Assembly: GCF_003334815.1 (NCBI RefSeq)
Contig: NZ_QOWO01000014.1
DNA length: 64,000 nt
Strand: one strand, 5' to 3'
From: Escherichia coli
Lineage (GTDB): Bacteria > Pseudomonadota > Gammaproteobacteria > Enterobacterales > Enterobacteriaceae
Positions 3,001-5,259 of this stretch are shown here, piece by piece. Each line of letters opens with the position of its first letter. The first letter of the stretch is position 1. A program made the position numbers.

Positions 3001-5259
3001 AATCCATCCGCTTCGGCCCTTCTGCCGTGGCTTTCATCGCACACACCGTACCGTCTGACTGCGGGTACACCAGCGCTTCAGTAGAAAACACGCAATCCAC
3101 GCCGAGCTTACCTTTACTGTTTTTCACTACGCCAAAATCGCTTTTCAGGCGCTCGCGCAACTTCGCCGCCAGCGGGTCCTGAATCGTTTTCGCCAGATCG
3201 GTAACCTGAATCTGCGTCGGATCAATCTGCCCACCCGCGCCACCGGTTGTGACCAGTGGGATTTTATTGCGCCGACAATAAGCAATCAGCGCCGCTTTGG
3301 GCCGTACACTATCAATGGCATCAATCACGTACGAATAACCCACGCTCATATACTGCGCTACGTTATCCGGCGTCACGAAATCATCCACCACCGTTACACG
3401 GCACTCCGGGTTAATCTGGCGAATACGCTCCGCCATAACTTCCGCTTTTGCCAGCCCAACGTTATCGCGCAGGGCATGAATTTGCCGATTGGTATTGGTG
3501 ACGCACACATCATCCATATCGATAAGCGTGATTGCGCCAATCCCCGTGCGCGCCAGCGCTTCCGCCGCCCAGGAACCGACACCACCGATACCAACCACAC
3601 AAATATGCGCGTCAGCAAACAGTTGCAACGCTTTTTCACCATACAGACGCGCTGTGCCACCAAAACGCTGACGCCATGCATCACTAATTACCACAGACAT
3701 AGCACCTCAGAATTAAAAAGGGCGAGGTTATCCCTCACCCTAAACGCATAAATGCCTGATGCGCTACGCTTATCAGGCCTACATAACTCCTGCAATATTT
3801 TGGATTTGCATGATTTGTAGGCCGGATAAGGCGTTCACGCCGCATCCGGCATGAACAACGCGCACTTAGTCAATAATCAGGATGTGAGGTTACCCCTCAC
3901 CCTGTCATATCCGTAAAAACGGCATACAGAATATCACATCAGCCGCTAAAGACGTTACCTGCGCCCGGGGCGGTTTTCAGCACCCAGACACGTCCATAGT
4001 GGTTGTACCAACCTGCGCGGTGTCCGGCTTCCGGCCCGATCCCTTGATAGATATCGAAGTGTTGGCCTTTGATTGCACCACCGACATCCAGCGCCACCAT
4101 CAGACGCAGTTCGTACTGACCATTAAATTTGCCGTTATTATCCAGCAACGGCACTTCTGCCAGCAAGGTAGTACCTGGCGGAATAATGGAACGATCAGAG
4201 GCAACTGACGCGCGACCAACCAGCGGCACCGCACTTGCCCCTTTCACCGGAGCAAAAGATTGCGGTTTAAAGAAGACGAAAGACGGGTTCTGTTCCAGCA
4301 GCTCGCGAACCTCGGCTTCACTGTGTGTTTCGCCCCAGTGACGAATCGCCTGCATCGACATATCTTCTTTTTTCACTTCGCCACGGTCGATCAGCACCTT
4401 ACCAATGCTGCGATAGGCATGACCGTTTTTCCCTGCATAGCTGAAAAAGTTAAGCGGACTGCCATCACCAAAGTCGATATACCCACTACCCTGCACATCC
4501 ATAATGAAGTTATCCATCAGGGAGTTACTGTAAGCGAGAATATATTTATCACTCAATGCCCCCGCGTAGATCTCCGCACGAGACGGCAGACGACCACGTT
4601 TTGGCGGCATACGGTAAATAGGATACTGGAACTCGCCCTGGCGGGTATGGCGCGCCTGAATTACCGGCGTGTAATAACCGGTAAACTGCACGTTACCATA
4701 GTTGTCGGCACCTTCCATCTGCCAGGCATCAATGCCGAACTGGCGCATATTGCGGGTATCACCGCCTGCGCGCAGCCACTCTTGCACCGCGTTATAAACA
4801 TTACTCTGGTTGCCATACAGACGCGGTGACGAATTACGGATATGGTTAATTTGCTCGGCAAAATCACCGGCGTTAATCGGCGCGCCAACGGCATCTGGCT
4901 GGTTCACCAGAGAGAAAGGCTGGGTAAATTTCCCGTCTTTATATTGCTGTCCGCGATCGGTTGGTTTGGAAGAGCAGGCGGCAAGCATTGCCACAACCGT
5001 GCCCATAAGAAGGTACTTTACCCAACGTCCTTTCATTGTTCTCTTCTTCAGGTTAAAAAATAAGGCGCAACGAAGATAACAAACCGCCGCGTTTAATGAA
5101 ATGAGCAGCCTCTCCCTGACGCAAATTTTGCACAAAAAATAGGCTTTAGTGATTTGTTTTTGTTCAAAATCATGCCAAATCCGTGATCGGGGTAAAAAAA
5201 GGTTGCATGAAAACGCGAGCGGAGTATAGTGCGCATCCACGGACGCGGGGTGGAGCAGC

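What the first reader, a model, noticed from the sequence alone, without database searches (positions are those of the whole stretch)
3724..3903. REP pair in the tcdA-mltA spacer flanked by a 17-bp direct repeat
Two oppositely oriented REP-like palindromes (3754-3783 and 3816-3851) form a BIME-like unit. They are bracketed by the direct repeat GAGGTTA(T/C)CCCTCACCC at 3724-3740 and 3887-3903. The flanking direct repeat is not something I can attribute to a known REP class.
Basis: seen in the sequence. Interest (0 to 1): 0.2.

Follow-up and report, generated by a model that had tools for sequence, protein, structure and literature searches.

The report
BIME-1 insertion duplicating a terminator hairpin
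The repeated 17-mer is the stem-loop of the mltA transcription terminator, copied to both sides of a ~140-base mobile REP element (BIME-1) that inserted there. Many other copies of this element are flanked by the same kind of duplicated hairpin, which is a concrete clue to how these abundant bacterial repeats spread.

Summary
An 18-nt direct repeat (20 nt with 2 mismatches; 3722-3741 and 3884-3903) brackets a Y-linker-Z1 REP pair. The pair is an ordinary BIME-1 (RIP/RIB) element.

The repeat is not part of the element. About half of 5,426 complete E. coli genomes lack exactly 162 bp here and keep one copy of the hairpin. E. fergusonii and Salmonella also have one copy. The hairpin is the intrinsic terminator of mltA, 19 nt upstream of the tcdA start codon. 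The repeat is therefore a target-site duplication.

The same signature recurs. Of 39 full-length (152-nt) BIME-1 copies from E. albertii, E. coli-like and Pseudocitrobacter genomes, 19 are abutted at both ends by a locus-specific 16-30-nt direct repeat (null 0.4%). These repeats are GC-rich stem-loops with flanking A/T runs. Two further E. coli loci (fdnI-yddM, uvrB-yvcK) have empty alleles with a single hairpin.

E. albertii shares the tcdA-mltA insertion, so the E. coli empty alleles are probably precise losses through the repeats.

The element is already known. I found no description of hairpin duplication as a BIME-1 insertion signature, but I could not read the key 1990s papers.

The parts
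2894..3700 (-). tcdA coding sequence (268 aa). Start codon at 3698-3700; Shine-Dalgarno GAGGTG at 3704-3709.
   Evidence: ORF list; RefSeq annotation of identical loci; TcdA homologues.
3714..3741 (-). tcdA-proximal copy of the mltA intrinsic terminator. The stem-loop is at 3741->3719 (AGGGTGAGGGATAACCTCGCCCT) and is followed by a U/T run. This is the only copy that keeps the T run.
   Evidence: Terminator scan; RNA fold of the spacer.
3722..3741 (.). Direct repeat copy 1 (GCGAGGTTATCCCTCACCCT): the left target-site duplication.
3742..3880 (+). BIME-1 element, corresponding to positions 13-152 of the 152-nt family consensus. The first 12 nt of the consensus (GAGACTGATGAC) are missing.
   Evidence: Alignment to the entD-fepA copy; family consensus; the 142-nt query finds BIME-1 in all 5,426 genomes.
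3754..3782 (+). Y-type palindromic unit (REP), ending in CTAC.
   Evidence: conserved block in A3.
3783..3816 (.). L linker. It has an IHF-consensus-like site (AATCCAAAATATTG on the minus strand, 3793-3806). It is also the Rfam ES036/CssrF hit at 3775-3817 (minus strand).
   Evidence: Rfam hit of 46.5 bits. The IHF resemblance was read from the sequence; binding was not tested.
3817..3850 (-). Z1-type palindromic unit (GCCGGATGCGGCGTGAACGCCTTATCCGGCCTAC on the minus strand).
   Evidence: weak naRNA4-like Rfam hit.
3881..3883 (.). Three bases (GAT) between the end of family homology and repeat copy 2. Their origin is unassigned.
3884..3903 (.). Direct repeat copy 2 (GTGAGGTTACCCCTCACCCT): the right target-site duplication. 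It is the mltA-proximal hairpin and has no T run.
3939..5036 (-). mltA coding sequence (365 aa). The end coordinate was set by homology to annotated orthologues.

Best explanation
**What it is.** The two copies of the 17/20-mer are a target-site duplication. The ancestral tcdA-mltA spacer (76 nt) held a single rho-independent terminator for mltA: A run, GGGTGAGG-loop-CCTCACCC, T run. A BIME-1 element inserted at this stem-loop. BIME-1 is a 152-nt non-autonomous REPIN-like repeat, with imperfect terminal inverted repeats (GAGACTGATGACAA...TTGTCAGCAATCTG) around a Y REP, an IHF-site linker and a Z1 REP. The copy here lacks its first 12 nt. The insertion left one copy of the stem-loop on each side.

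**Consequence for transcription (inferred).** The T run was not duplicated. The mltA transcript therefore now runs through hairpin copy 2 and the BIME-1, and terminates at copy 1, 19 nt before the tcdA ATG.

**Mechanism (inferred, about 0.5).** Integration used breaks on the two strands at opposite feet of the target stem-loop or cruciform, followed by fill-in. This would explain why the duplicated length (12-31 nt at other loci) tracks the size of the local hairpin and is not fixed. The enzyme is unknown. The REP-associated Y1 transposase TnpA_REP (RAYT) is the obvious candidate but is untested.

**After insertion (partly shown).** The 20-bp repeats, brought together by the element's own long hairpin, act as substrates for precise loss, which restores a single terminator, and for tandem amplification.
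For: **Shown at this locus.**
- Presence/absence: 2,752 of 5,426 genomes cover the full query. The others have a place exactly 162 bp shorter. Aligned empty alleles hold one hairpin.
- Outgroups: E. fergusonii has the 76-nt empty spacer with one hairpin, and Salmonella has the same hairpin once.
- Terminator: the hairpin plus T run scores as an intrinsic terminator.
- Element boundaries: homology to the entD-fepA copy starts at 3742 and ends near 3880.

**Shown across the family.**
- Flanks of 120 Y-linker-Z1 matches have a best direct-repeat score at the 90th percentile of 22. For mismatched flank pairs the 99th percentile is 12.
- Among 39 full-length elements, 19 have a repeat abutting both ends, against 0.4% in the null.
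- Reconstructed targets have a median stem of 10 bp; only 0.5% of null windows reach 10.
- The stem overhangs the repeat by about 2 nt symmetrically on both sides.
- 25 of 52 left ends and 21 of 50 right ends have a stem of at least 8 bp just outside, against 4.3% in the null.
- Elements closer to the consensus keep better repeats (Spearman 0.45, p=0.004).

**Empty sites at two more loci.** fdnI-yddM and uvrB-yvcK have empty alleles that are shorter by exactly the repeat spacing (178 and 174 bp) and hold one hairpin.

**Amplification through the repeats.** The K-12-derived strain MFDpir has hairpin-BIME-hairpin-BIME-hairpin.

**Age.** E. albertii and E. coli E69 share the insertion, with the same truncated left end.
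Against: - No enzyme or intermediate was observed. The staggered-cut step is inferred only from the end product.
- Y1 transposases of the IS200/IS605 type, to which RAYT is related, do not make target duplications (PMC3333891; PMC2817692). TnpA_REP cleaves at C|T near a REP with GTAG, not at arbitrary hairpins.
- About 40% of full-length elements show no flanking repeat, for example entD-fepA. I attribute this to decay. uvrB-yvcK in typical E. coli has lost most of one copy, but decay is not proven for the other loci.
It is dominated by Pseudocitrobacter and E. albertii, and several loci are orthologous between genomes, so the number of independent events is below 19.
- Three bases (GAT, 3881-3883) and the missing 12 left-end bases at this locus are unexplained.
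Confidence: 0.85

Rival explanations
1. The 17-mer is a conserved outer motif of the REP/BIME family (for example the A or B extra-PU motif), so the repeat is part of the element.
For: BIME-1 does have conserved outer arms beyond the two REPs.
Against: The outer arms are different sequences (GAGACTGATGACAAACGC... and ...CACTTTGTCAGCAATCTG). The 17-mer is absent from the entD-fepA copy and from 130 of 138 fetched loci; every match is at tcdA-mltA. It is present once in genomes and species that lack the element. Allele-specific 34-mers hit exactly one place per genome.
Confidence: 0.01
2. Two-step origin. The terminator was first duplicated in tandem, or two similar terminators pre-existed, and a BIME-1 later landed between the copies. 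The repeat would then say nothing about the insertion.
For: Nothing direct. Tandem units of hairpin plus element do form secondarily.
Against: No genome or outgroup examined has two adjacent hairpins without the element. The same arrangement, with repeats abutting both element ends within 4 nt, recurs at about 19 loci with unrelated hairpin sequences. That would require the two-step coincidence every time.
Confidence: 0.03
3. The outcome is the same (element plus duplicated hairpin), but it arose by replication template switching or target-primed copying at a stalled hairpin, not by staggered cleavage. The nascent strand copies the hairpin, copies a BIME-1 template elsewhere, then returns upstream of the hairpin.
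For: Both the target and the element are strong hairpins. Several copies, including this one, have truncated ends directly joined to the repeat. The duplication length is variable. DNA polymerase I is reported to bind palindromic units (reference list seen).
Against: Most copies have the same precise 152-nt ends (28 of 39), which is typical of end-specific processing. I saw no obvious microhomology at the junctions. The offsets are symmetric on the two sides of the stem.
Confidence: 0.25
4. The E. coli genomes with the 76-nt spacer never carried the element. The polymorphism would then reflect a recent insertion inside E. coli, or retained ancestral polymorphism, rather than precise loss.
For: 882 empty genomes carry the T..T hairpin, identical to E. 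fergusonii. Precise loss leaves no scar, so never-occupied and lost alleles look alike. The T..C product (1,103 genomes) would need a crossover in only 1 nt of homology if it derived from the present window-type allele.
Against: E. albertii and the divergent E. coli E69 carry the same insertion, with the same 12-nt left truncation at the same junction. This points to one event before those lineages split. The two derived hairpin alleles among empties (T..C 1,103; C..T 644) each match one repeat copy of the filled allele.
Confidence: 0.15

Closest known systems
BIME-1, also called RIP or RIB elements, of E. coli and relatives (Gilson/Bachellier/Hofnung; Oppenheim 1993; Boccard & Prentki 1993)
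   Same: One Y and one Z1 palindromic unit in inverted orientation, separated by the conserved L linker with an IHF site. About 140-150 nt conserved, extragenic, single unit, at the 3' end of a transcription unit, many copies per genome. Whole-element presence/absence between strains has been described (abstract of Bachellier 1997 from memory; PMC1187871).
   Different: The element itself does not differ, except that this copy lacks the first 12 nt. What I add is the flanking duplication of a target hairpin. I did not find this in any paper I could read; the original papers were not available.
REPIN/RAYT systems (Bertels & Rainey 2011; Nunvar 2010; Ton-Hoang 2012)
   Same: Two inverted REPs form one long hairpin. 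The unit is non-autonomous, and the presumed driver is a single-copy Y1 (HUH) transposase.
   Different: The IS200/IS605-type mechanism assumed for REPINs makes no target duplication. Here a long, variable, hairpin-shaped duplication is present. RAYT involvement was not tested.
Bacterial MITEs (terminal inverted repeats plus target-site duplication)
   Same: Terminal inverted repeats, small size, no coding capacity, flanking direct repeats, foldable into a long stem-loop.
   Different: MITE duplications have a short fixed length set by a DDE transposase (for example 2-9 bp). Here the length varies from 12 to 31 nt and coincides with a target stem-loop. A 2011 review states that REPs lack MITE signatures (PMC3184786).
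CRISPR spacer integration by Cas1-Cas2, and casposon integration
   Same: An insert ends up between two copies of a pre-existing palindromic sequence, because the two strands are attacked at opposite ends of that sequence and the gaps are filled. IHF participates in E. coli. This comparison is from general knowledge and is an analogy only.
   Different: Spacers have a ruler-fixed length of about 33 bp and one dedicated target. The BIME-1 insert is 152 nt and uses many unrelated hairpins. There is no evidence that Cas1 is involved.
Transposase-independent precise excision of Tn10/Tn5 between their 9-bp target duplications (slipped mispairing promoted by the inverted repeats)
   Same: Direct repeats flank a hairpin-forming insert, and loss restores the original site exactly. 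This is my explanation for the 49% of genomes with empty alleles and for the tandem expansion at fdnI-yddM.
   Different: The repeats here are longer (20 nt) and are themselves hairpins. No rates were measured.
Elements that target hairpins: IS1397/ISKpn1/IS621 into REPs, and class C group II introns downstream of intrinsic terminators
   Same: An extragenic stem-loop is used as the landing site, which avoids gene disruption.
   Different: Those elements make 3-4-bp duplications or none. They do not duplicate the whole stem-loop.

Membership tests
BIME-1 (RIP/RIB) | One Y and one Z1 palindromic unit in inverted orientation | tested here: met
   Y unit at 3754-3782 and Z1 unit at 3817-3850. The blocks are identical to those of the entD-fepA BIME-1. 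Assignment of the names Y and Z1 rests on the consensus as I remember it and on PMC3333891.
BIME-1 (RIP/RIB) | Long conserved L linker carrying an IHF-binding site | tested here: inconclusive
   The 34-nt linker aligns with the family linker and is hit by Rfam ES036. The IHF-like core here (AATCCAAAATATTG) has one more mismatch to WATCAANNNNTTR than the family consensus. Binding cannot be tested with these tools.
BIME-1 (RIP/RIB) | Conservation over about 145 nt, including the motifs outside the two units | tested here: met
   About 90% identity over 137 nt to entD-fepA. The copy corresponds to consensus positions 13-152; the first 12 nt are absent.
BIME-1 (RIP/RIB) | Extragenic, single unit, at the 3' end of a transcription unit, many copies per genome | tested here: met
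   It lies between the mltA stop codon and the mltA terminator. Each genome has 12-55 matching places.
REPIN mobilised by an IS200/IS605-like Y1 transposase (RAYT) | Two inverted REPs that fold into one long hairpin | tested here: met
   The consensus folds end to end, at -62 kcal/mol (RNA parameters) or -35 kcal/mol (DNA parameters).
REPIN mobilised by an IS200/IS605-like Y1 transposase (RAYT) | Insertion without target-site duplication (the hallmark of single-strand peel-and-paste transposition) | tested here: not met
   A 20-nt duplication is present here, and 16-30-nt duplications flank 19 of 39 full-length copies. The hallmark is as stated in PMC3333891 and PMC2817692.
REPIN mobilised by an IS200/IS605-like Y1 transposase (RAYT) | Dependence on the RAYT gene | not testable with these tools
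   This needs genetics or biochemistry.
Classical MITE | Terminal inverted repeats | tested here: met
   In the family consensus, GAGACTGATGACAA pairs with TTGTCAGCAATCTG. This copy has lost the left terminal repeat.
Classical MITE | Short target duplication of fixed length, matching a parent IS | tested here: not met
   The duplication length varies from 12 to 31 nt and follows the target stem-loop. No parent IS with these ends was looked for.
Rho-independent terminator (the duplicated sequence) | GC-rich stem-loop followed by a T run, downstream of a gene | tested here: met
   One search finds 9 pairs (6 of them G-C), a 5-nt loop and a T run. The hairpin is conserved as a single copy in E. 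fergusonii and Salmonella. Termination activity was not tested.

The most novel reading that the evidence does not exclude
Every BIME-1 insertion is a structure-guided integration at the feet of an intrinsic-terminator stem-loop, and it duplicates that stem-loop. BIME-1 would then be a true transposable element with terminal inverted repeats and a hairpin-sized target duplication. That signature is incompatible with the duplication-free Y1 mechanism usually assumed for REPs. This rule has not been described and would define the target and product for an experimental transposition assay. The duplicated terminators would also explain precise loss, tandem BIME arrays and the 3'-end location of these elements.
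Probability: 0.4. Interest if true: 0.75.

Novelty: already known. Interest (0 to 1): 0.5.

Why it matters
REP/BIME elements make up a noticeable share of non-coding DNA in enterobacteria. How they disseminate is still called unresolved in 2021 and 2026 papers (PMC8266576; bioRxiv 10.64898/2026.03.23.713779).

A reproducible insertion footprint does three things:
- It identifies the preferred target, which is terminator-like hairpins with A/T runs.
- It constrains the chemistry to breaks on opposite strands at the two feet of the hairpin.
- It supplies a simple readout for in vivo or in vitro assays.

It also explains three known facts: why BIME-1 sits at the 3' ends of transcription units without destroying termination, why whole elements disappear cleanly between strains, and how tandem arrays can start.

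At this locus the practical consequence is modest. mltA gains a REP-containing 3' UTR in about half of E. coli strains, while its terminator and the tcdA start region stay intact.

Tried and rejected
- **Genome-wide search for the 17-mer.** I spent the single genome-contig scan on a BIME-1 pattern instead. I then counted the 17-mer in all fetched loci and used allele-specific 34-mers against 5,426 genomes.
- **Rfam.** The ES036/CssrF hit and the weak naRNA4 hits are matches to the repeat itself. I do not take them as evidence of a dedicated sRNA.
- **Promoter scan.** Nothing was found in 3500-4100.
- **Donor copy.** The closest sibling (entD-fepA) is only about 90% identical. No source copy can be named.
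- **LINE-like target-primed copying.** I considered this because of the variable duplications and the truncated left end. Truncations occur at both ends in other copies and most copies have precise ends. It is kept only as part of the template-switch rival.
- **Cas1-Cas2 or casposase involvement.** This is an attractive analogy, but the insert length and the multiplicity of targets do not fit, and nothing was tested.
- **Deriving all empty alleles from the present filled allele.** The near absence of the C..C recombinant (1 genome) and the 1-nt homology needed for the T..C product mean the history is more complex. Older filled alleles or inter-strain recombination may be involved.
- **Literature.** Bachellier 1997, Boccard & Prentki 1993, Gilson 1991 and Clement 1999 are not held. 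Seven full-text searches found no mention of hairpin or terminator duplication at BIMEs.
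Full report
**1. The observation**

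The window is Escherichia coli DNA. tcdA (2894-3700) and mltA (stop codon at 3939) both lie on the minus strand and are separated by a 238-nt spacer.

The direct repeat is real:
- GAGGTTATCCCTCACCCT at 3724-3741 and GAGGTTACCCCTCACCCT at 3886-3903, 162 nt apart.
- With the two variable positions allowed, the repeat is 20 nt (3722-3741 and 3884-3903).
- Nothing else in the 64 kb resembles it, even with three mismatches.

Between the copies lie a Y-type REP (3754-3782), a 34-nt linker and an inverted Z1-type REP (3817-3850).

**2. What the repeated sequence is**

On the minus strand the tcdA-proximal copy is the stem-loop of a textbook intrinsic terminator, AGGGTGAGGGATAACCTCGCCCT followed by a T run. 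It sits 19 nt upstream of the tcdA ATG.

The mltA-proximal copy forms the same hairpin but has no T run.

**3. Presence/absence in E. coli**

- A 521-nt query across the spacer is fully covered in 2,752 of 5,426 complete genomes. In the others the match is 359 nt, exactly 162 nt shorter.
- Aligned examples (JJ1887, 13P460A, B19429) have one hairpin, AAAAAGGG[T/C]GAGGTTA[C/T]CCCTCACCCTG, and no REPs.
- The 142-nt insert used alone finds a copy at 95% identity or better in 2,772 records. Elsewhere its best match is the entD-fepA BIME-1, at about 90% identity over 137 nt.
- The alignment of the two copies starts exactly at 3742 (AAACGC) and ends at about 3880 (AATCWG). The 17-mer is outside the repeated element.

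**4. Outgroups**

I found TcdA homologues and fetched their contigs.
- E. fergusonii has the 76-nt empty spacer with one hairpin.
- Salmonella has the same hairpin once.
- Citrobacter has a different terminator.

The single terminator is therefore ancestral. The filled allele equals an inserted element (3742-3883) plus a 20-nt duplication of the target.

**5. Is this a peculiarity of one locus?**

I scanned one genome per species for CAGGCCTAC-N25-45-GTAGGCCGGAT. They came mainly from E. albertii, two divergent "E. coli" species representatives, two Pseudocitrobacter genomes, Citrobacter and Kosakonia.

Flanking direct repeats:
- The best direct repeat between left and right flanks far exceeds that of mismatched flank pairs. 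The 90th percentile is 22, against a null 99th percentile of 12.
- The repeats are locus-specific and sit at constant offsets. Examples are AAGCCTCCGCTTGCGGAGGCTTT, AAACCTCGCGATGCGAGGTTT and GGGCCGCGAAAGCGGCCT.

The canonical element:
- It is 152 nt long, with imperfect terminal inverted repeats (GAGACTGATGACAA...TTGTCAGCAATCTG).
- It folds as one long hairpin.

Repeats at full-length copies:
- Of 39 copies with both ends recognisable, 19 are abutted at both ends (within 4 nt) by a 16-30-nt direct repeat, against 0.4% of 2,000 mismatched pairs.
- Four more keep the stem arms but have diverged loops.

The target sites:
- Reconstructed target sites have a median stem of 10 bp. The null mean is 4.9, and only 0.5% of null windows reach 10 bp.
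- They are mostly A-rich on the left and T-rich on the right.
- The stem overhangs the duplicated segment by about 2 nt on each side, symmetrically.
- About half of all recognisable element ends have a stem of at least 8 bp immediately outside, against 4.3% at random.
- Copies closer to the consensus keep better repeats (Spearman 0.45, p=0.004). This fits decay with age.

**6. Independent confirmation with empty sites**

- *fdnI-yddM.* 2,396 genomes are filled. The others are 178 nt shorter, which equals the repeat spacing, and carry one bidirectional terminator hairpin.
- *uvrB-yvcK.* The empty allele is 174 nt shorter and has one hairpin. Typical E. coli filled alleles have since lost most of the left hairpin copy. 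This shows how elements without flanking repeats can arise.
- *Tandem expansion.* In a K-12 derivative the fdnI-yddM unit is doubled as hairpin-BIME-hairpin-BIME-hairpin. This is the expected product of unequal exchange between the duplicated hairpins.

**7. History at tcdA-mltA**

- The 17-mer occurs in the fetched loci only at this locus. That includes E. albertii L040 and E. coli E69 L129.
- Both carry the same element with the same missing 12 left-end bases. In E. albertii the right hairpin copy has diverged and 13 nt of the element's right end are deleted.
- The insertion therefore most likely predates the E. coli/E. albertii split and followed the E. fergusonii split.
- The 49% of E. coli genomes with empty alleles would then be secondary precise losses.

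Allele-specific 34-mers count the empty alleles:

| Hairpin allele | Genomes |
|---|---|
| T..T | 882 |
| T..C | 1,103 |
| C..T | 644 |
| C..C | 1 |

- Each allele has one place per genome.
- Together they account for 2,630 of about 2,654 empties.
- In the filled allele the left copy is C..T and the right copy is T..C. Each derived empty allele therefore equals one of the two copies.
- This fits loss by exchange within the repeats.
- The near absence of C..C, and the very short homology needed for the T..C product, show that the path was not a simple deletion from the present allele. Never-occupied lineages cannot be excluded for T..T.

**8. Mechanism**

Shown: element plus one extra copy of a pre-existing stem-loop; precise element ends; a duplication length that follows the hairpin; symmetric offsets.

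Inferred: the two strands were broken at opposite feet of the stem-loop, perhaps extruded as a cruciform or exposed as single strands. The element was joined and the gaps were filled. I put about 0.5 on this, and about 0.25 on a replication template-switch route.

The enzyme is unknown. TnpA_REP binds REPs and cuts single strands at C|T over long distances. However, its relatives make no target duplication.

For loss and amplification, I invoke the established slipped-mispairing route known from transposase-independent precise excision of Tn10/Tn5. This rests on my own knowledge.

**9. Comparison with what is known**

The element is a standard BIME-1/RIP/RIB. Strain-to-strain presence/absence of BIMEs is known (PMC1187871; Bachellier 1997 abstract, from memory).

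The papers I could read say three things:
- REPs lack MITE signatures (PMC3184786).
- The IS200/IS605 family makes no duplications.
- The dissemination mechanism is unresolved.

None mentions duplicated terminator hairpins. The founding papers were not available. I therefore cannot claim priority.

**10. Verdict**

- The object is a known kind of repeat.
- The flanking repeat is a target-site duplication of the mltA terminator.
- The wider pattern it led to, hairpin-sized target duplications at BIME-1 insertions, is the part worth following up.

Noticed in passing
window 3775-3817 (minus strand): Rfam family RF02751 (ES036/CssrF sRNA) matches above its gathering score, but the matched stretch is simply the L linker of BIME-1. 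The family model probably describes a dispersed repeat, not a single sRNA gene.
   Followed up: partly
window 5244-5320 (plus strand): There is a single tRNA-Met (CAT) gene downstream of mltA. From memory, K-12 carries three tandem copies (metZ, metW, metV) here, so this strain may have a contracted array.
   Followed up: partly
window 2850-2890: A lone REP-like palindrome (GGGTCGGATAAGACGTTCGCGTCTCATCCGACC) lies in the convergent csdE-tcdA spacer. It has a weak naRNA4-like Rfam hit (26.9 bits).
   Followed up: no
L136:215-604 (E. coli MFDpir, fdnI-yddM): The K-12 lineage carries hairpin-BIME-1-hairpin-BIME-1-hairpin with a 178-nt period. This is a tandem duplication of the element plus its target duplication, and may be how multi-unit BIME arrays begin.
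   Followed up: partly
L138:200-400 (E. coli CV601, uvrB-yvcK) versus L125 (E69): In typical E. coli the left copy of the duplicated hairpin has been almost entirely deleted, while E69 keeps both copies. This is an example of how the insertion footprint is erased.
   Followed up: partly
L019:6978-7474 and L043:1476-1707 (E. albertii): There are tandem arrays of BIME-1-like units: four copies with a 147-nt period, and two copies with a 177-nt period that include an intervening hairpin (GCCGACGCTAAAAGGTGTCGG).
   Followed up: no
hit H120, E. coli AR_0067, yddM-fdnI spacer: An IS200C-family (IS200/IS605-like) transposase gene is annotated inside this BIME-1-bearing spacer in one strain. A Y1-transposase IS has landed at, or next to, a BIME-1 or terminator site.
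   Followed up: no
L007:1392-1500 (Salmonella) and L008:1368-1500 (Citrobacter): The mltA-tcdA spacer has independently acquired other REP-like palindromes in Salmonella (one, upstream of the conserved terminator) and in Citrobacter (an inverted pair). The same spacer is a recurrent landing site.
   Followed up: no
hit H167, E. coli EcN_Sk: This is the only genome of 5,426 with the C..C hairpin allele at the empty tcdA-mltA site. It could be a recent recombinant or a point mutation.
   Followed up: no
window 554-759 and 33739-34022: GcvB and the OmrA/OmrB pair are present at full Rfam scores. These are ordinary and as expected for E. coli.
   Followed up: no
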